The notes under the pieces were generated by a model. That model worked only from the letters and a program-made list of their open reading frames with translations, made no database searches and had not been told where the DNA came from. A stretch of DNA of 59,113 nucleotides from Candidatus Kapaibacterium sp. (lineage in GTDB: Bacteria; Bacteroidota; Ignavibacteria; Kapaibacteriales; UBA4661): NCBI GenBank assembly GCA_025363605.1, contig JANYDO010000135.1, positions 1-59,113 of the forward strand. Reading direction: 5' to 3'. Shown here piece by piece: positions 6,822 to 13,046 of this stretch. The stretch's first letter is position 1. Every line of letters begins with the position of its first letter. Made by a program: the position numbers and the translations under genes.

Positions 6822-6894
<73 letters not shown>

Positions 6895-6985: not shown

Positions 6986-7066
6986 TTACCGCCCCTCCAC
7001 CACCCGAATCTCCTCCGCTGCCCAATCATACAACTCATACACCAACGCATTTATGGGTCGCTCTGT
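6986..7066 (-). pseudogene. Orphan 3'-terminal remnant (~26 codons plus stop) of a type IIG RM gene paralogous to the one at 9066..13046
   Basis: The reverse-strand translation ...TERPINALVYELYDWAAEEIRVVEGR* aligns with the intact gene's C-terminus ATDRAIDALVYGLYDLTAEEIAVVEGR*. DNA identity is ~85% over ~70 nt (6987-7053 vs 9067-9133). No similarity continues upstream and no start codon is present. Confidence 0.7.
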
Positions 7067-7235
7067 TGGTACTACTGTGAACAATATGTTGAAAATATGT
7101 GAATTTTTTGTAACTTCGCGTCCGAAGAGAGCGTCAATACAGGCGTTCAAGAATCTCTGTTTAAGAATATAGATTTTTTCGGACTTAGATTATTTTCTCA
7201 ATTTGCTTTGCCTCAATTAGCAAACTGGCTGCTGT

Positions 7236-7957: not shown

Positions 7958-8464
7958 ATGCCTAATGCACTTGCATATACCACACAACCTCCGTATGACA
8001 ATGTGAGGTTTTCTCCACATCCAATCACATTTAATCTCTTTATTGATTCCTCTTTGAAAATCTCTCAGCCGAATTTTGATTTTCCACCTTCTTTGAAAAA
8101 ACTTTCCCCAAAGGCTGTTGAGGTATTGGGAGAGCATAATACCAGACGATTTGAGGAGCTGTCAGCACTAAAGGACGGCTGGGATTTTGGTCGCGGAAAA
8201 GCTCTGAATTCTGATTCATTACGGACAATAGAGTTGTTTTTGCGCTCTTACAACTCATTTCCCGAACGGTGCTCATTATTTCTATCGGCACGAGGAAATC
8301 TTGAATTAGCTTGGGATGCTGGAGATGATATGGTCAATTCTCTTGAGTTTTATCCTGAGCATATTGCCTATTACATCGAAGCCACAGACGATGAAGGTGA
8401 GGTTTCTCTGACAAACATTCATGCGCTTGTTCACAAACTTTTGTCCACAAAGAAGAATGCCTGA
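7958..8464 (+). CDS. Hypothetical protein (168 aa), no family recognised
   Basis: Starts 2 nt after the stop of the upstream gene. It is acidic, with a LKDGWDFGRGKAL...LELAWD segment. Same strand and compositional style as its neighbours. Confidence 0.6.
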   Translation: MPNALAYTTQPPYDNVRFSPHPITFNLFIDSSLKISQPNFDFPPSLKKLSPKAVEVLGEHNTRRFEELSALKDGWDFGRGKALNSDSLRTIELFLRSYNSFPERCSLFLSARGNLELAWDAGDDMVNSLEFYPEHIAYYIEATDDEGEVSLTNIHALVHKLLSTKKNA

Positions 8465-9056
8465 GATTCAACGCGGCGTACCGTGTGCGCCCGAGGAAAA
8501 AATCGTCCGTGCAATCCTGACGACTGACTATGATTCAAAAACTAATCTCCTCAAACGCTCACTTTTTGAGACCGATAACAACGGCACAGATATTTCTGTA
8601 AGCCGCCTTGCTGTGCTATCTGTATCGGAACTGTTTCCAATTTTTGCCGGCGATTTGGATACGCCACCCGATAGACTCGTTATTCAGGTTGGAACAATCG
8701 AAGTGCAAGACCTGATTCAAATGGGCGAAGACAACCTCACATCCGAAGCAAAAAAATTGGTTCGTCTGAGTGTGATTCAAGACCCTTGTCCTTTACCACT
8801 CAGAGGTCGGGATTACAAGCAATATCCCATTTCTTCATTTAATGAACTGTGTCAATGCTCCCACAATCCAAACCAACACTACTGCCCTGAAAATGCAGGT
8901 AAAGCGACAAAGCCATGCCCACGTAACTATGCCCATGCAGAAATTCGTGGTGATAAAATTAGCAAAGGACTTTCAAGTAAAATTGTTGCAGCAATCCAAA
9001 AACATCTTTATATCTATCCTCAACGAGTGGAGTACGTGCCAATAAAGACACCGTGA
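8457..9056 (+). CDS. Hypothetical protein (~199 aa) with a Cys/His-rich C-terminal segment, no family recognised
   Basis: From ORF 8421..9056. I prefer the ATG at 8457, which overlaps the upstream stop (ATGCCTGA), a classic coupled arrangement. It contains CQCSHNPNQHYCPENAGKATKPCPRNYAHAEIRG. Confidence 0.55.
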   Translation: MPEIQRGVPCAPEEKIVRAILTTDYDSKTNLLKRSLFETDNNGTDISVSRLAVLSVSELFPIFAGDLDTPPDRLVIQVGTIEVQDLIQMGEDNLTSEAKKLVRLSVIQDPCPLPLRGRDYKQYPISSFNELCQCSHNPNQHYCPENAGKATKPCPRNYAHAEIRGDKISKGLSSKIVAAIQKHLYIYPQRVEYVPIKTP

Positions 9057-9065
9057 ATCCCCCCC

Positions 9066-10736
9066 CTACCGCCCCTCCACCACCGCAATCTCCTCCGCCG
9101 TCAAATCATATAACCCATACACCAACGCATCTATCGCGCGGTCGGTCGCTTCCAGCGTGGCTTTTAGTGCGGCGGCTTCTTGCTGCTTTTTCTCGAAGTA
9201 GGTCAGCAGTTCTTCCTTTTTGTCCAGCGATAGTTGCACTTTGGCTTTTTTCAGTTCTGCTTCCAGTTCTGCCCACGTGAGCGTGTCCCATGCTTGGAGT
9301 TTTGTGCTGGGTTTCGTTATTCCCGTTTCCGTGCAAAGCAGCGTCAGGACTCGCTTGCGGAGGTCGGAAAGGCTCTTGTTTGTGGCAATCATTGTTTCAA
9401 CGTAGCTTCGTAACAAGGGAGTATGCTCCCTTGTTTCCAGATTGGACGGGATGGGCAGTTGCACCAAGTACATCGGTTTATATTCGTAGAAGCCGCCTTG
9501 CTTCGTGGCTGCGATGCTGTGCATGAAAAAGTCCGTTGCTTTCGAGTTCAGCACAGCGAGCAAGGCTTTGTCATCGACACCGATAATGCTTGTTTTGTCG
9601 TTGGAGTAAAAACCACTTACATCCACAAGGTACGATGCGGTCTGCACGATTGCCGGAACGATAATCTTCGGCTTTTCAAATTCTTCGTAATACTCACACG
9701 CTCTGAGTTCCCACCAATACTCGCCTTTGTCAGAGCGCTTTCGGGCAGCATCAGCAAATGGAGCAAGATGCTTGAAAATAGCCGGATATGAGACTTGAAG
9801 CCATTCCCACGCTTCTTCCGCAACAAGGGAGCATGCTCCCTTGTTCAATTCGTAGTGCCGTCGCGTCCAACCCTTCGGAAAGAGTATCAAATAATTCTCC
9901 GCTTCCGGCGTTGCATACCGCTTCACATCTCGCCCCGCAAGAAATGGCTTCAGTACATCCGCGCTTTTCGGGTCTTCAGCGATAAGACGGGCGCGGGTGG
10001 CTGCGTCCACCACAAATGCTTCGTTCAAACCTGTCAATACACCGCGATAAATTTTTCCCTGCACATACTCGCCAAGCGGCGTACCTGCTGCGCGGAGTTT
10101 TGCCAGCAGCCCGCTTACTGCATTGTTGGTCAGCGACCAGCCTTCATCGTGCAGTTGTGCCGTACTCACGGCAAAGCGCATCCGCTCTACTTCTGCTAAA
10201 AGGCTCTCAAAATCAAGCGTGGTGAGGTTTGCAGCCCTAAACGCTTCTTTCGGTGCGCCTTTGCGAATCCGCAGCACACACGGGTACGCAATCGCGTCCT
10301 CAAACACGGGTAAATCGCCAAAATCAATAATTTCCTCCAACGATTGCGCTTTCATCCAGCGACGAAGCGGCTCTCCGTAGCTTGCCCGCATCCACTTATT
10401 GGCAACAATGATACTGTACAAACCGCCCTCTTTCAGCAATCGGACGCTTTGCTCCATGAAGTAGGCGTATAAATCCGCGCTGCCATGCGCAACGGTGTAG
10501 TTTTGGGCAAGAAACACCTTCATTGCTTCGGGCAAAAGCTCTTGGCGAACATACGGCGGATTTCCCACAATCACATCAAAGCCGCCTGTTGTGATTGGCT
10601 CGAAAGCGCGTTCTACGGGAGTCATCACTCGTTGAACAAGGGAGCATACTCCCTTGTTTTCGGGAAGGTCGTGTTTTATGCGGTTGTTTTCAATGTAATT
10701 CAATACACTCAGCAATTCCGCATCACTTTCAATCAA
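9066..10736 (-). CDS. C-terminal RM fragment (RAYT tail, MTase motif IV NPPY, TaqI_C-like specificity domain)
   Basis: The ORF as tracked starts at a TTG and has no convincing independent start. The first in-frame ATG is at ~10625 (MTPVERAFEPITTGGFDVIVGNPPY). It is probably not expressed as a functional unit. Confidence 0.5.
   Translation of the reverse strand: MIESDAELLSVLNYIENNRIKHDLPENKGVCSLVQRVMTPVERAFEPITTGGFDVIVGNPPYVRQELLPEAMKVFLAQNYTVAHGSADLYAYFMEQSVRLLKEGGLYSIIVANKWMRASYGEPLRRWMKAQSLEEIIDFGDLPVFEDAIAYPCVLRIRKGAPKEAFRAANLTTLDFESLLAEVERMRFAVSTAQLHDEGWSLTNNAVSGLLAKLRAAGTPLGEYVQGKIYRGVLTGLNEAFVVDAATRARLIAEDPKSADVLKPFLAGRDVKRYATPEAENYLILFPKGWTRRHYELNKGACSLVAEEAWEWLQVSYPAIFKHLAPFADAARKRSDKGEYWWELRACEYYEEFEKPKIIVPAIVQTASYLVDVSGFYSNDKTSIIGVDDKALLAVLNSKATDFFMHSIAATKQGGFYEYKPMYLVQLPIPSNLETREHTPLLRSYVETMIATNKSLSDLRKRVLTLLCTETGITKPSTKLQAWDTLTWAELEAELKKAKVQLSLDKKEELLTYFEKKQQEAAALKATLEATDRAIDALVYGLYDLTAEEIAVVEGR
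9412..9435. repeat. REP-like palindrome P1
   Basis: AACAAGGGAGtATGCTCCCTTGTT, 1 mismatch to the perfect 24-mer. Read as TREHTPL in the RM frame. Confidence 0.9.
9822..9845. repeat. REP-like palindrome P2
   Basis: AACAAGGGAGCATGCTCCCTTGTT, perfect. Read as NKGACSLV in the RM frame. Confidence 0.9.
10635..10658. repeat. REP-like palindrome P3
   Basis: AACAAGGGAGCATaCTCCCTTGTT, 1 mismatch. Read as NKGVCSLV. It lies immediately after the RAYT-like ...NRIKHDLPE. Confidence 0.9.
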
Positions 10737-10745
10737 ATTACAGTG

Positions 10746-13046
10746 CTATTTCTGCGCCCAGAGATGGCGTTGTGCGAGACCTCTTCGCGTCTTGGTATCG
10801 GATGCGGTATCGTCTAACAAGGGAGCATGCTCCCTTGTTAGTACCGGGTTGTTATGCTGTCCGCTCTCGTCTGGCAAGGGAGCATGCTCCCTTGTTAGTA
10901 TCGGTAGTAATATCGAGATTTGAGGGACAGTATATCCATGTGCAATGTTGAATTTTCGTGCAGATACAGCTTTTAATTTTTGCACAATTTTATCCCGTTC
11001 ATGCTCTTCACAAACAAGTACCAAATGAACATGGTCTTGGCAGATATTATAGCCCAATACGCGCAGTTTATCTTCTCGAATAATATCTGCAATATATTCT
11101 GAAATCTCTATTTCTTCTGATTCGTTCAGTACCGTTGGCTCTTGAATTGGGTTTTGCCCCTTGTTCATGCGGAGATACTTGATAACTGCTTCGTATTCTA
11201 TCATACGCTCGCTTACACGACTGTTATGTGTTACCCACGTGATGTGATAGGCTTGAAGGCACTTCTGCGAAAACACTTCAGGAAACGCCGCCGACCAATC
11301 AAACGCCGCTTCTCCGGCTACATTCGGGTCGTCCACGAGCGAGTTCCCGCACCGAATCGTGTGGTCGAGCGTGGTAAGTTCTTTCGAGCGGTCTGCCGTT
11401 TTGAGCCAGAGCGAAAGCCGCGTAATTTCTACGCTTTCGGGGTTCACGTCCACGCCGTACAGGTTATTTTGCAGAATGTCTTTTTGCAAGTCGCCGGTGG
11501 TGGTTTGTCCGAGTTGCAGCCGCGCCAATTCAGCATTGACGCGCTGCCCGTCGGCATAAAGAAAATCAAACACCTGATTCAAAAATGCACCGCTCCCGCA
11601 CGCAGGGTCGCACACTTTCACGGCAGCAAGTTTCTCGCGGTACGCCGTCCATGCTGCGATGTGCCGTTCAATGGTTTTGTTGTACGTCAGGACGTTCCGT
11701 TTGTCGCGTTTGATGCTTTGCCAATCGGCATCGGTGATGTCGGGAAGTGCATCAAAGCCACATTCTGCCTTGCGCTCTTCCAAATACCCGCCAACGGTCT
11801 CCTGCACGATATAGCGCGTAATGTATTCGGGCGTGTAGAAAATACCGTCTTTTTTGCGCTTGCCCTTGCTTGCATCGTGCGCCGCGCCTGCGATTTGGGC
11901 TTTCAGTTCTTCAATGTCGGTGATGGACTGCTCGAAAATATGCCCCAGAATATTGACATTCAGGTCGCTGTCGAAATCATACTTTTCCAGCGCGATGATA
12001 TGCTCCAGCACGCTGTCCTTGATAACCAAAGCATCCAACTCGGCATCATCGGCAAATAAACCGCCGTTGAATTTGTTGATGTGTTCTTCGGGATAGCCTT
12101 CGTTGATAGCCACAAACAAGCCGCGCACTCTGTCCCAAATTTTCGTGTCGCTGCGGTTGAATTTGTCGCGCTTCACGTCTTTCAGAAGCCGCCGGAAGGT
12201 GCGCCGGGGAATGATTTCTTTGTCTTCCACAAAGCAGATAAAAACAACGCGGTCGAGCAGCTTTTGTGTTTTGTTCAGCACAAGCAATTCCGGTGCGGAA
12301 GGATTTGCCGCGCACAAGTGCTTGAAAAGGTCGTTGCGGGCTTGTTTGTATTCGGCGTAAAATTCTTTGGTGATGCGGTCTTCTTCCTTCACCCGCGCAG
12401 CAAAGAGTTCTTCGGTGCGAGAACTGGTCTCGTTTTCCGTGCTGCTTTCAGACAACGGCAAAAGATTGTCGCGGTGCATGAGAAAGAGCAAACGCCTCAG
12501 TTCATGCGATTCGGTGAGACGCGAAAGCTCGAATCGCTCGTATTTGGATTGGTCGGAATGATGATACAAGCGGAGTTCAAGGTAATTCGAGACAATCACC
12601 CATTTGCAGCTTCCACCAGCCTTCGGCGCGTAGCTGAATGCTTGCTCAACAGGAGTGCGTTTGTCATTTTGGCGTTTTTGCGGTTTGTCGAGGTCGTGCG
12701 TAGCGTCTTTGAGTTCAATCACAGCATAGACGCGGGAAACGCTTTCGCTTCCCTGCATTGCAAAAAAGCCCAGCACACCGTCCGGCACGGAACTATCGGC
12801 GTGAGAAGTTTGATTTTTGGTGAGCGTCCACGCGCCGCTTGCACGGTTATCGCTGAAGCCGAGCATATCCCGAAAAAAGTGCGCGAGAAATTGTCCGTCC
12901 AGTTCAGTTTCTTTGGCGGCAAGAATGCTGCGATTATCAATCATACGCTTCCACTCTTGAGCGCGAAGGAGAGCGTTTTCGGGCGGTTCGGGCAAGGAAG
13001 CAAGGTGCTGCTGGAGAGACTTCGGCGAAAAAAGCGGTGTGTGCAT
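10746..13046 (-). CDS. N-terminal RM fragment (nuclease plus MTase motif I) fused in-frame to the N-terminal two-thirds of a RAYT-like transposase; ends at TAG
   Basis: Start taken at the ATG at 13046 (MHTPLFSPKSLQQHL). The RM sequence runs to ...FPEVFSQK (to ~11262). It then reads straight into CLQAYHITWVTHNSRV...QDHVHLVLV...RHLWAQK*. Confidence 0.7.
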   Translation of the reverse strand: MHTPLFSPKSLQQHLASLPEPPENALLRAQEWKRMIDNRSILAAKETELDGQFLAHFFRDMLGFSDNRASGAWTLTKNQTSHADSSVPDGVLGFFAMQGSESVSRVYAVIELKDATHDLDKPQKRQNDKRTPVEQAFSYAPKAGGSCKWVIVSNYLELRLYHHSDQSKYERFELSRLTESHELRRLLFLMHRDNLLPLSESSTENETSSRTEELFAARVKEEDRITKEFYAEYKQARNDLFKHLCAANPSAPELLVLNKTQKLLDRVVFICFVEDKEIIPRRTFRRLLKDVKRDKFNRSDTKIWDRVRGLFVAINEGYPEEHINKFNGGLFADDAELDALVIKDSVLEHIIALEKYDFDSDLNVNILGHIFEQSITDIEELKAQIAGAAHDASKGKRKKDGIFYTPEYITRYIVQETVGGYLEERKAECGFDALPDITDADWQSIKRDKRNVLTYNKTIERHIAAWTAYREKLAAVKVCDPACGSGAFLNQVFDFLYADGQRVNAELARLQLGQTTTGDLQKDILQNNLYGVDVNPESVEITRLSLWLKTADRSKELTTLDHTIRCGNSLVDDPNVAGEAAFDWSAAFPEVFSQKCLQAYHITWVTHNSRVSERMIEYEAVIKYLRMNKGQNPIQEPTVLNESEEIEISEYIADIIREDKLRVLGYNICQDHVHLVLVCEEHERDKIVQKLKAVSARKFNIAHGYTVPQISILLPILTREHAPLPDESGQHNNPVLTREHAPLLDDTASDTKTRRGLAQRHLWAQK
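10816..10839. repeat. REP-like palindrome P4
   Basis: Perfect 24-mer, extendable to 26 nt (TAACAAGGG...CCCTTGTTA, 10815-10840). Read as TREHAPLL inside the RAYT-like region. Confidence 0.9.
10875..10896. repeat. REP-like palindrome P5
   Basis: gCAAGGGAGCATGCTCCCTTGTT, with the left arm shortened by 1-2 nt. Read as TREHAPL. It lies 35 nt from P4. Confidence 0.85.

What the first reader, a model, noticed from the sequence alone, without database searches (positions are those of the whole stretch)
9066..13046. One 3,981-nt reading frame: a type IIG restriction-methylase gene with a RAYT-like HUH/Y1 transposase spliced in-frame into its methyltransferase fold, broken by a single TAG
Seen directly in the sequence:
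- The RM protein reads normally through the PD-(D/E)XK nuclease, SAM motif I (DPACGSGAFL, ~11600) and FDWSAAFPEVFSQK.
- With no stop or start codon, it then continues into CLQAYHITWVTHNSRV...QDHVHLVLV...RHLWAQK-TAG-HCNLIESDAELLSVLNYIENNRIKHDLPE.
- It returns to ...GGFDVIVGNPPYV (motif IV, ~10555) and a TaqI_C-like specificity domain.
- Motifs I and IV are therefore ~350 codons apart instead of the usual ~130-150.

Established knowledge: the inserted ~220 codons carry the hallmarks of REP-associated tyrosine transposases (PF01797-type). These are the YH-x-T strand, the HUH motif, the W-Q-x-x-(F/Y)-x-x-H-x-I block and the Y-I-x-x-N-x-x-K-H catalytic-Tyr block.

The only defect in the whole frame is the TAG at 10746-10748. 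It sits exactly where an aromatic residue (TAT/TAC, Tyr) is expected, one substitution away.

Inference: this is either a very recent inactivation of an RM gene by a Y1-transposase element, or a maintained in-frame chimera. Y1/HUH elements of the IS200/IS605 type excise seamlessly, so a reversible on/off switch for the restriction enzyme is conceivable. I know of no description of a RAYT embedded in-frame in an RM catalytic domain.
Basis: partly seen in the sequence, partly recalled or inferred. Interest (0 to 1): 0.8.

Follow-up and report, generated by a model that had tools for sequence, protein, structure and literature searches.

The report
REP transposase living in-frame inside restriction gene
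A restriction-modification gene carries a complete hairpin-associated (RAYT-like) DNA-cutting enzyme and its small palindromes fused in-frame inside its methylase domain; the same intact arrangement recurs in dozens of bacterial species and appears undescribed, and only this copy is broken by one stop codon.

Summary
Minus strand 13046-9066 is one 1,327-codon frame with a single TAG (10748-10746). It reads MmeI/Eco57I-type restriction-methylase, then a 225-codon Y1/HUH nuclease, then the rest of the methylase and its specificity domain.

It is not a one-off accident.
- 64 of 80 related loci from GTDB species genomes, spanning many lineages including cultured isolates, carry the same Y1 family inside a type IIG gene.
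- 63 of these sit in the same loop, between FPEVF and GGFDxxxGNPPY.
- 55 of the 64 keep one open frame across everything visible.
- The catalytic HUH and Tyr residues are conserved and dN/dS is 0.06-0.29.

It is not a fixed domain either. Orthologues 83-86% identical to the window's enzyme lack the insert, the Y1 and host-gene histories disagree, and free-standing, hairpin-flanked copies exist.

This is the family's REP-like hairpin.

Best reading: an in-frame "REPtron" translated only as part of a still-functional restriction enzyme. The window's copy was recently knocked out by TAC/TAT→TAG. How the element moves is inferred, not shown. I found no prior description.

The parts
11262..13046 (-). 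N-terminal part of the type IIG restriction-modification enzyme. It comprises the MmeI_N nuclease (AVIELKD at 12725-12705), the helical spacer, and the methylase from motif I (DPACGSGAFL, 11609-11580) to FDWSAAFPEVFSQK (11303-11262).
   Evidence: Pfam hits to MmeI_N, MmeI_hel, MmeI_Mtase and Eco57I profile 1-69. The whole enzyme (insert removed) is 83-86% identical to insert-free orthologues P0098, P0100 and P0102; this part is 93% identical to P0099 and 84% to P0103, which carry the insert. Coordinates.
10587..11261 (-). In-frame Y1/HUH (RAYT-like) nuclease ORF of 225 codons, with no start or stop codon of its own. It contains the beta-1 strand YHITWVTHNSR (from 11249), the HUH motif DHVHLVL (11036-11016), LWAQK, the catalytic-Tyr motif LNYIENNRIKH (10703-10671) and the tail ERAFEPITT (10613-10587).
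   Evidence: Pfam Y1_Tnp E 1e-13. 97 homologues, most of them 140-260 aa free-standing proteins. Alignment invariants H77, H79 and Y189. GC content is 43.7% against 52% in the flanking RM sequence.
10746..10748 (-). TAG, the only stop codon in the 1,327-codon frame. It replaces the conserved Tyr/Phe of the LWAQK[YF] motif.
   Evidence: The closest intact allele, L083, has TAC here. Across the loci the codons are TAT 21, TTC 20, TTT 18 and TAC 8.
9066..10586 (-). C-terminal part of the RM enzyme. It comprises motif IV (GGFDVIVGNPPY, 10586-10551), the rest of the methylase, the TaqI_C specificity domain and the helical tail ending IDALVYGLYDLTAEEIAVVEGR.
   Evidence: Pfam Eco57I profile 69-171 and TaqI_C; alignment A2.
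10635..10658 (.). REP-like 24-nt palindrome AACAAGGGAGCATACTCCCTTGTT, read as NKGVCSLV. It occupies the conserved C-terminal hairpin position of the Y1 family and marks the right end of the replaced tract relative to L083.
10792..10904 (.). Tandem 57-nt duplication (10792-10847 and 10849-10904). Each copy holds one palindrome (10816-10839 and 10873-10896, both read as LTREHAPL). It lies in the variable loop between the HUH and Tyr motifs, and the two copies can pair into one long REPIN-like hairpin.
   Evidence: families D2 and I3. One search gives a folding energy of -31.4 kcal/mol with z -7.5. Alignment A1 shows the stretch is an insertion relative to most family members.
11156..11165 (-). 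Half-hairpin relic: only the left arm, AACAAGGGGC, of the N-terminal REP survives (read as RMNKGQNP). It marks the left end of the tract in which the window's Y1 differs from that of its nearest relative.
   Evidence: The window/L083 nucleotide alignment drops from about 92% identity at the centre of this hairpin (coordinates).
9822..9845 (.). REP-like palindrome inside the specificity domain, read as NKGACSLV. It is an 8-codon insertion relative to alleles P0108 and P0104.
9412..9435 (.). REP-like palindrome AACAAGGGAGTATGCTCCCTTGTT inside the C-terminal region, read as TREHTPL. It is absent from most orthologues.

Best explanation
**What it is.** The locus is a type IIG (MmeI/Eco57I-family) restriction-modification gene hosting an in-frame 'REPtron'. 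That is a complete RAYT-like Y1/HUH single-strand DNA nuclease ORF, stripped of its start and stop codons, together with its cognate 24-nt REP-like palindromes.

**Where it sits.** The nuclease lies in the surface loop immediately before methylase motif IV. The palindromes are 8 codons long and, as read here, contain no stop codon, so they lie in-frame in both the nuclease and the host gene.

**Shown.**
- The arrangement is recurrent and the frame is usually intact.
- The catalytic residues are conserved and selection is purifying across the whole gene.
- The insert is present or absent among close orthologues.
- The window's Y1 differs from its nearest relative's by a tract bounded by two REP hairpins.

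**Inferred.**
- The Y1 is made only as part of the host polypeptide and folds as a separate domain.
- The restriction enzyme still works with the insert in place.
- The cassette spreads or is exchanged between RM alleles. This could happen by Y1 action at REP hairpins, or by recombination through the conserved FPEVF and GGFD...NPPY flanks.
- It behaves as a tolerated passenger rather than a gene disruptor.

**The window's copy.** One recent nonsense change (TAC/TAT to TAG) splits the protein into 766-aa and roughly 556-aa pieces, so this particular gene is probably dead. Alternatively, the base call is wrong.
For: **Anatomy.**

**Recurrence.**
- A GTDB scan found 190 loci encoding a relative. 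Of the best 80, 64 have the Y1 inside a type IIG gene and 55 of those have the frame open across all visible RM parts.
- Gracilibacteria copies are intact under genetic code 25.
- Isolate genomes are included: Gelidibacter, Mariniflexile, Haloflavibacter and Kordia.

**Same loop in different hosts.** The Y1 occupies the same loop in RM genes with different N-terminal architectures (MmeI_N, HSDR_N and a long N-terminus). In L002 it sits at a second site and is flanked by REP doublets.

**Selection.**
- HUH and Tyr are conserved in 63-67 of 67 embedded copies.
- dN/dS of the Y1 is 0.06-0.29.
- dN/dS of the downstream methylase half is 0.04 between filled alleles.

**Mobility.**
- Insert-free orthologues at 83-86% identity, and orthologues carrying the insert whose RM parts are 84-93% identical, sit side by side in the search results.
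- N-half and Y1 distances correlate only at r 0.37. Examples: L075/L051 0.04 vs 0.50; P0105/P0114 0.31 vs 0.11.
- At least about 20 solo/embedded switches are needed on the Y1 tree.
- Solo copies sit among housekeeping genes with hairpins on both sides.

**REP link.**
- Five palindromes in this gene against 0.01 expected by chance.
- Hairpin density is 10-fold higher in host genes than in their flanks.
- Hairpin-coded peptides occur at 2.5 vs 0.08 per 1,000 aa in Y1-bearing vs Y1-free RM proteins.
- The consensus over 158 copies is AAC-AAGGG-N8-CCCTT-GTT, with conservation ending beyond those 24 nt.
- The replacement tract ends at REP hairpins.

**Structure.** An AlphaFold2 model of the intact chimera P0229 has pLDDT 85.8. 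The Y1 domain is confident, the linker is disordered, and the overall fold matches BrxX, CamA and MmeI.
Against: - No experiment shows that a filled enzyme methylates or cuts DNA. Function is inferred from purifying selection only.
- The movement mechanism is not demonstrated. There is no target duplication and there are no defined cleavage sites.
- Empty alleles read FPEV-MQQ-GGFD while filled alleles read FPEV-FSQK..., so empty alleles are not simple excision products of the known filled ones.
- Much of the module shuffling, notably C-half swaps right after GNPPY, also occurs in insert-free genes and needs no Y1.
- The hairpin is not confined to RM genes. 69 of 80 metagenome contigs carrying the exact 24-mer have neither Y1 nor RM nearby.
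- Strong conservation and long-term intactness would equally fit a domesticated domain that is useful to the host.
Confidence: 0.62

Rival explanations
1. **Domesticated accessory domain.** The HUH nuclease has been recruited by the restriction enzyme for a host function. Candidates are nicking or binding single-stranded or hairpin DNA of invaders, or driving recombination that reshuffles RM modules and specificities. On this view it is maintained for that function rather than as a passenger.
For: - Frames are intact in 55 of 64 embedded loci.
- Catalytic residues are invariant and dN/dS is low.
- The same loop is used in at least three RM architectures.
- Embedded copies cluster on the Y1 tree, with 20 state changes against 63 expected at random.
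- N-half, Y1 and C-half recombine as modules, and the tract boundaries fall at hairpins.
Against: - Most close and distant RM relatives do without the insert. 112 of the 120 best hits lack it, including orthologues 83-86% identical to the window's enzyme.
- Free-standing family members carry the same motifs.
- C-half swapping also occurs in insert-free genes.
- No co-divergence with the host is seen.
Confidence: 0.2
2. **Reversible switch.** Insertion turns the RM enzyme off, and seamless Y1-mediated excision turns it back on.
For: - Presence and absence occur at one precise codon-level site among close orthologues.
- Y1 transposases of the IS200/IS605 type excise precisely. This is established knowledge and was not tested here.
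Against: - The insert lacks start and stop codons, and the downstream half of filled genes evolves at dN/dS about 0.04. This is expected if the fusion protein is the selected product.
- Empty alleles differ from filled ones in the three codons before the junction (MQQ vs FSQ), so they are not simple excision products.
- No excised form or circle could be looked for in the data to hand.
Confidence: 0.1
3. **One-off recent accident or artefact.** A transposase happened to land in-frame in this one gene, or a mis-assembly joined unrelated sequences.
For: Taken alone, being in-frame at both junctions has roughly a 1-in-9 chance. The window comes from a metagenome-type contig and carries a stop codon.
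Against: - The same junctions occur in 63 other species genomes, including cultured isolates, and in metagenome proteins carrying the insert whose RM part reaches 93% identity.
- The Eco57I profile is split at the same position, 69/70, in the window and in L015.
Confidence: 0.02

Closest known systems
REPtrons: RAYT (TnpA-REP) genes with flanking REP/REPIN palindromes (Nunvar 2010, Bertels and Rainey 2011, Ton-Hoang 2012, recalled from memory; Quentin et al. 2018, PMC6006769, read here)
   Same: - A single-domain Y1/HUH nuclease with a Y---N type Tyr motif.
- It is tied to a short palindromic repeat found next to and inside the gene.
[quoted passage not shown]
- Free-standing family members are flanked by hairpins.
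- The exact hairpin is also dispersed, mostly between genes, in metagenomes.
   Different: - Here the nuclease gene has no start or stop codon and is itself embedded in-frame in a host ORF.
- It scores below the NCBIfam RAYT cut-off (44 vs 80 bits).
- The hairpin foot is AAC/GTT rather than GTAG or CGTC.
- The HUH motif is DH[VI]H rather than NHxH.
- Quentin et al. discarded long 'fusion' proteins, so this arrangement was not covered.
IS200/IS605 insertion sequences (TnpA Y1; ISDra2 and IS608 structures 2XM3 and 2A6M)
   Same: - These are the closest solved structures by sequence.
- They share the HUH plus single-Tyr chemistry.
- They leave no target duplication and use hairpin-dependent ends (established knowledge).
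   Different: - The score is below the IS200 equivalog cut-off (37 vs 55 bits).
- The Y motif is not Y---Q.
- There is no separate element with its own ends, promoter and ORF, and no tnpB.
- The window holds a single copy.
Intragenic in-frame palindromes: Rickettsia RPEs and 'REP-decorated' proteins (Ogata 2000, recalled from memory; Di Nocera et al. 2013, PMC3733652, read here)
   Same: - Short palindromic repeats are inserted in-frame in functional genes, adding a few residues in loops.
- They are present or absent between orthologues.
- Hosts are often enzymes that act on DNA.
   Different: - Those cases concern only the small repeats, never the transposase gene itself.
- Here the unit is exactly 24 nt and is concentrated in one gene together with its nuclease.
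Inteins and homing-endonuclease genes
   Same: - A selfish ORF lies in-frame at a conserved catalytic motif of a conserved enzyme and depends on host translation.
- It is present or absent among close alleles at one exact site.
- Neighbouring flank codons differ between filled and empty alleles, which resembles co-conversion.
   Different: - There is no Hint or splicing domain and there are no splice-junction residues.
- The insert stays in the mature protein.
- The nuclease is an HUH single-strand enzyme, not a LAGLIDADG or HNH enzyme.
MmeI-family type IIG/IIL restriction-modification enzymes (PDB 5HR4) and BREX PglX/BrxX
   Same: - The host gene has the full architecture: nuclease, spacer, gamma-class N6-adenine methylase and TaqI_C specificity domain.
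- The model of a filled homologue matches BrxX, CamA and MmeI.
   Different: - Described members have 2 residues where this gene has 225.
- Motifs I and IV are 349 codons apart.

Membership tests
Type IIG RM enzyme, MmeI/Eco57I family | N-terminal nuclease domain plus helical spacer | tested here: met
   Pfam MmeI_N scores 28.9 bits (cut-off 27) and MmeI_hel 28.2 bits (cut-off 27).
Type IIG RM enzyme, MmeI/Eco57I family | Gamma-class N6-adenine methylase with motif I (DPACGSG) and motif IV (NPPY), plus a TaqI_C specificity domain | tested here: met
   Eco57I profile positions 1-69 and 69-171 are both matched, TaqI_C scores 55.9 bits, and both motifs can be read directly.
Type IIG RM enzyme, MmeI/Eco57I family | Restriction and methylation activity of the single polypeptide | not testable with these tools
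   The window copy is split by the TAG. For intact filled relatives only purifying selection is available as evidence.
Y1/HUH transposase superfamily (Pfam PF01797) | HUH motif, catalytic Tyr on the C-terminal helix, and a profile match above the cut-off | tested here: met
   Y1_Tnp scores 52 bits against a cut-off of 23. H77, H79 and Y189 are conserved in 63-67 of 67 embedded copies. The closest PDB entries are the ISDra2 and IS608 TnpA proteins. The domain is confidently folded in the model.
RAYT (REP-associated tyrosine transposase) | Match to the curated RAYT model above its cut-off | tested here: not met
   NF047646 scores 44-50 bits against a cut-off of 80.
RAYT (REP-associated tyrosine transposase) | Cognate palindromic REPs adjacent to the gene | tested here: met
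   Five palindromes lie in or next to the insert. Solo relatives are flanked on both sides, and L002 is flanked by REP doublets.
RAYT (REP-associated tyrosine transposase) | REPs dispersed through the genome, mainly between genes | tested here: inconclusive
   No copy lies in the other 55 kb of the window. The exact 24-mer is mostly intergenic on unrelated metagenome contigs.
RAYT (REP-associated tyrosine transposase) | GTAG or CGTC tetranucleotide at the hairpin foot | tested here: not met
   The consensus foot over 158 copies is AAC...GTT.
IS200/IS605 insertion sequence | TnpA matching the IS200 equivalog model; Y---Q motif; autonomous element with its own ORF and subterminal hairpins; multiple copies | tested here: not met
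   NF033573 scores 37 bits against a cut-off of 55. The Tyr motif is Y---N. There is no start or stop codon. The window holds one copy.
Intein | Hint or splicing domain and conserved splice-junction residues | tested here: not met
   No Hint family appears in Pfam. The first insert residue is C, R, Q, H, S or N among relatives, and the last residues before GGFD are variable.
Self-splicing intron or IStron | Group I or group II intron RNA structure | tested here: not met
   Rfam at gathering thresholds finds only one tRNA in the window.
Intragenic in-frame REP/RPE-type repeats | Short palindrome whose length is a multiple of three, free of stops as read, present or absent between orthologues | tested here: met
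   The unit is 24 nt and is read in two frames within this one gene (NKGACSLV and TREHAPL). The 8-codon indel is seen against P0108 and P0104.

The most novel reading that the evidence does not exclude
This family would be a distinct kind of in-frame selfish element.
- It is a hairpin-dependent HUH nuclease cassette that homes to the loop before motif IV of N6-adenine methylases, across several restriction-enzyme architectures and many bacterial lineages.
- It relies on the host gene for transcription and translation and stays in the mature enzyme without destroying it.
- By cutting and joining at its in-frame REP hairpins, it would also promote exchange of modules between restriction genes.
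- That would make it a non-splicing, DNA-level counterpart of inteins.
Probability: 0.3. Interest if true: 0.85.

Novelty: new variant of a known kind. Interest (0 to 1): 0.75.

Why it matters
**For mobile-element biology.** RAYT/REP systems are common, but what they do is still unclear. Here one sits inside an enzyme with an easily measured activity, in cultured Flavobacteriia. Its nuclease activity, hairpin specificity and mobility therefore become directly testable.

**For restriction enzymes and engineering.** The finding shows that the catalytic domain of a restriction-methylase tolerates a 160-300-residue domain in the loop before NPPY. That matters for enzyme engineering. It also matters for annotation, because gene callers and earlier surveys split or discarded such 'fusions'.

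**For restriction-system evolution.** If the nuclease promotes exchange at its hairpins, it would be a new driver of diversification in restriction systems.

Tried and rejected
- **Intron or IStron.** Rfam finds nothing apart from one tRNA.
- **Intein.** No Hint domain and no junction residues.
- **Other assemblies with TAT/TAC at the TAG.** A 30-mer with N at the variable base gave 0 hits in metagenome contigs, so the TAG cannot be checked against reads or sister assemblies.
- **'Hairpins occur only in RM/Y1 genes'.** Rejected. 69 of 80 metagenome contigs with the exact 24-mer have neither gene nearby.
- **Y1 vs C-half discordance as evidence of Y1 mobility.** Rejected. The breakpoints lie right after GNPPY and also occur in insert-free genes. 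Only the N-half vs Y1 discordance is used.
- **8-bp inverted repeat across the right junction.** Not followed up in other loci; treated as probably chance.
- **Plasmid or phage carriage.** No tblastn match at E 1e-8 in PLSDB or INPHARED.
- **First structure alignment (A4).** Its free-standing homologues were misaligned, so it was not used. A5 was used instead.
- **A1 for the exhaustive profile search.** A3 was used instead.
- **Literature.** Searches for RAYT with restriction-modification, for Y1_Tnp with Eco57I, for HUH with type IIG, and for the hairpin peptides found no description.

Full report
**1. The observation**

The reverse strand of 13046-9066 translates as 1,327 codons with one internal stop, TAG at 10748-10746.

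Pfam places the following along the frame:
- MmeI_N, MmeI_hel and MmeI_Mtase, with Eco57I profile positions 1-69, upstream of the insert.
- Y1_Tnp on the insert (E 1e-13 when scored alone).
- Eco57I profile positions 69-171 and TaqI_C downstream.

The methylase profile is therefore cut cleanly at position 69/70. Motif I (11609-11580) and NPPY (10562-10551) are 349 codons apart.

**2.

A perfect 24-nt palindrome, AACAAGGGAGCATGCTCCCTTGTT, occurs five times in the window.
- The copies are at 9412, 9822, 10635, 10816 and 10873, with up to two mismatches.
- All lie inside this gene. None lies in the other 55 kb, and chance expectation is 0.01.
- They read in-frame as NKGxCSLV or TREHxPL.

Two copies sit in a tandem 57-nt duplication inside the nuclease, in the loop between the HUH and Tyr motifs. 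As single-stranded DNA one unit folds at -11.8 kcal/mol (z -7.1). The tandem pair can form one long REPIN-like hairpin (z -7.5).

**3. The insert is a member of a defined Y1 family**

- A search of 5.8 billion proteins found 97 relatives. Most are free-standing proteins of 140-260 aa that JGI names RayT.
- Their alignment has invariant HUH histidines, an LWAQK[YF] block and a Y-I-x-x-N-R-x-K-H block.
- Many carry peptides coded by the same kind of palindrome, such as NKGLQPLV and EQGxxxPC.
- A profile search of 1.84 billion cluster representatives found 202 at E<=1e-30. About 63 of the best 150 are longer than 350 aa, with the Y1 at around residue 550-580 in the full-length proteins of 1,100-1,270 aa.
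- NCBIfam scores are below the cut-offs of both the RAYT model (44-50 vs 80 bits) and the IS200 model (37-40 vs 55 bits).
- The nearest solved structures are the ISDra2 and IS608 TnpA proteins.

The insert belongs to the Y1/HUH superfamily and behaves like a RAYT. It is not a curated-model RAYT and it is not an IS200 transposase.

**4. The arrangement is recurrent and intact**

*Frequency.* A scan of one genome per GTDB species found 190 loci with a relative, and the best 80 were kept.
- They come from Ignavibacteria, Kapaibacteria, Bacteroidales, Flavobacteriia, Balneolaceae, Chlorobiota, Gracilibacteria/Patescibacteria, Gastranaerophilales, Trueperaceae, Neomarinimicrobiota and Methylomirabilis.
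- In 64 of the 80, the Y1 lies between the two halves of a type IIG gene.
- In the canonical cases, alignments to the window's N-part end at its last residue a few bases before the Y1, and alignments to the C-part start at GGFD.
- In 55 of the 64, one frame is open across all RM parts that can be seen. Many are complete ORFs of 1,150-1,380 aa.
- Two Gracilibacteria loci look broken only because TGA codes for Gly there. They have 34 and 36 in-frame TGA codons and no stops under code 25.

*Junctions.* The junction residues are stereotyped...EFPxVF-xxK-xKK-A[YFW]H[IV]T... on the left and ...AF-x-x-E-Y-K|GGFDVVIGNPPY on the right. Insert-free relatives have only two residues between FPE[VI][FM] and GGFD.

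*Different hosts and a second site.* The same loop is used in RM genes with different N-terminal architectures: MmeI_N, HSDR_N and a long third type. In L002 the Y1 sits at another site, after motif I, flanked on both sides by doublets of the palindrome. That gene is also intact at 1,258 aa.

**5. The insert is functional and so, apparently, is its host**

- In 67 embedded copies the HUH histidines, the preceding Asp, the Trp, the catalytic Tyr and the following N-R-x-x-H are conserved in 63-67. The position of the window's TAG is Tyr (32) or Phe (31).
- dN/dS of the Y1 between embedded pairs is 0.06-0.29.
- dN/dS of the methylase half downstream of the insert, between pairs of filled alleles, is 0.04.
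- Almost no embedded copy has a Met at its start (only L016). Solo copies begin M-(K)-x-L-K-x-YHITW and end ...AF-x-P, so the embedded form is the whole ORF minus its start and stop codons.
- An AlphaFold2 model of an intact chimera (P0229, 1,188 aa) has mean pLDDT 85.8 and pTM 0.79. The Y1 domain (about 556-690) is confident, the linker (700-744) is disordered, and the methylase strand resumes at 758.
- The overall fold matches BrxX/PglX, CamA, MmeI and M.TaqI.

I infer that the fusion protein is the expressed product and that it still works as a restriction enzyme. That is not shown.

**6. It is not a fixed domain**

*Polymorphism.* With the insert removed, the closest relatives of the window's enzyme (Candidatus Kapaibacterium and relatives) fall into two groups:

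| State | Proteins | Length | Identity to the window's enzyme |
|---|---|---|---|
| Insert-free | P0098, P0100, P0101, P0102 | 1,084-1,095 aa | 83-86% over the whole enzyme |
| Carrying the insert, complete ORF | P0099, P0103 | 1,272 and 1,282 aa | 93% and 84% over the aligned RM part |

Five further hits carry the insert: P0107, P0108, P0111 and P0114 (1,267-1,307 aa) and P0105 (1,208 aa, which lacks its N-terminus in alignment A2). Their aligned RM parts are 74-86% identical. Of the 120 best hits, 112 lack it.

*Junction at the nucleotide level.* The empty allele reads ...CCTGAAGTC ATGCAGCAG GGCGGCTTTGAT. The window reads ...CCTGAAGTG TTTTCGCAGAAG [675 nt] GGCGGCTTTGAT. There is no target duplication.

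*Discordant histories.* Distances in the methylase N-half and in the Y1 correlate only weakly, at r 0.37.
- Near-identical hosts carry very different Y1s: L075/L051 0.04 vs 0.50; window/P0099 0.06 vs 0.44.
- Different hosts carry similar Y1s: P0105/P0114 0.31 vs 0.11; L008 vs P0103 0.72 vs 0.39.

*Y1 tree.* On a tree of 192 Y1 sequences, embedded and solo states are clustered but still need about 20 changes. The window's nearest Y1 is that of L002, which sits at a different site in a different RM gene.

*Solo copies.* These lie among unrelated housekeeping genes with hairpins on both sides.

*Caveat.* The swaps of the C-terminal half break right after GNPPY and also occur in insert-free genes. 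They reflect recombination at motif IV and say nothing about the Y1.

**7. The palindromes are the family's REPs**

- Over 158 copies in 83 loci the consensus is AAC-AAGGG-N8-CCCTT-GTT. Conservation stops sharply outside those 24 nt, and the centre is variable but self-complementary.
- The unit is 8 codons long and, as read here, has no stop codon.
- Density is 0.58 per kb in the host genes against 0.059 per kb in the flanks.
- Hairpin-coded peptides occur at 2.5 per 1,000 aa in Y1-bearing RM proteins against 0.08 in 111 Y1-free relatives.
- Individual units are present or absent between orthologues, even in a Y1-free allele (P0104).
- The repeat is not confined to these genes. Of 80 metagenome contigs with the exact 24-mer, 69 have neither Y1 nor RM nearby, and most of those copies lie in short open frames, like ordinary extragenic REPs.

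*Mosaic Y1 in the window.* The window's Y1 is about 90% identical to that of its nearest relative (L083) at both ends, but only 41-66% identical in the middle. The switch occurs at the centre of the N-terminal hairpin, where only the left arm AACAAGGGGC survives (11165-11156), and at the C-terminal hairpin (10635-10658). In L072/L024 the only divergent stretch is the hairpin-bearing loop. The hairpins therefore behave as joints for cutting, joining or recombination.

**8. Comparison with what is known**

- Quentin et al. [quoted passage not shown] They state that unexpectedly long proteins, 'gene fusions or annotation errors', were discarded. Their subclass 1.2 (DH[IV]H, Y---Q--HH, Bacteroidetes and Cyanobacteria) is the nearest by motifs, but it is not the same.
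- Di Nocera et al. 2013 (PMC3733652) list in-frame intragenic REPs, many of them in DNA repair and replication genes, and recall the Rickettsia RPEs.
- In-frame REPs are therefore known. A RAYT-like gene that is itself embedded in-frame in a host gene, recurrently in restriction enzymes, was not found in five literature searches. Absence from a partial library is not proof of novelty.
- The family has no match on sequenced plasmids or phages.

**9. The window's copy**

- The TAG is one transversion from the TAC of the closest intact allele.
- Both RM halves have no frameshift and are 83-93% identical to intact relatives.
- The lesion is therefore recent, or it is a base-calling error. No sister assembly was found to decide between these.
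- The insert has 43.7% GC against about 52% in the host gene, consistent with a foreign, recently exchanged core.

**10. Verdict**

The sequence facts are solid. The best explanation is an in-frame REPtron tolerated inside a working type IIG enzyme and exchanged between RM genes, with the window's copy freshly inactivated.

Two rivals remain open:
- A domesticated domain that serves the enzyme.
- An excision-based on/off switch, which is less likely.

The mode of movement is the main unknown. It could be Y1-catalysed, or it could be recombination through conserved flanks.

Noticed in passing
window 6986-7150 (-), next to the tRNA at 6822-6894 (+): A 54-aa ORF ends ...PINALVYELYDWAAEEIRVVEGR. 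It is a relic of the C-terminal tail of a second type IIG RM gene, 52% identical to residues 467-506 of the C-part. It lies beside a tRNA gene, which suggests an RM-carrying island with turnover at this tRNA.
   Followed up: partly
protein P0142 (1,274 aa, metagenome relative; not in the window): The same loop before GGFD holds an unrelated insert of about 190 aa (EEIPKVCVDSNILFDY...). It has no Pfam match. The loop may be a general landing site for in-frame insertions.
   Followed up: partly
L077/L056, L007/L010, L063/L044; proteins P0106, P0146, P0166: The C-terminal halves of these RM genes (after GNPPY, including the specificity domain) are exchanged as blocks, whether or not a Y1 is present. 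Motif IV acts as a recombination joint.
   Followed up: partly
L039:5306-5573 (Subsaximicrobium wynnwilliamsii); L005:32-803: Hairpin units can expand into arrays while staying in-frame. L039 has eight tandem copies inside its Y1. L005 has about seven hairpin-coded repeats between its Y1 and GGFD.
   Followed up: no
L014 and L016 (both contigs of Bacteroidales MAG15, JAEINX01): One genome bin has two different type IIG genes, each carrying a Y1 at the same loop. This would fit spread within a genome.
   Followed up: no
L078:3296-7084: A free-standing family member with flanking hairpins lies between two ORFs that, by eye, resemble a Cas3-like helicase and a Cas4-like nuclease. Neither ORF was run against Pfam.
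   Followed up: no
window 8421-9056 (+) and 7958-8464 (+): Two ORFs of 211 and 168 aa, directly downstream of the RM gene, have no Pfam match. Their function is unknown.
   Followed up: partly
window 10586-10625 (-): An 8-bp inverted repeat (CAATCACA / TGTGATTG) spans the right junction of the insert. It was not examined further in other loci and is probably chance.
   Followed up: partly
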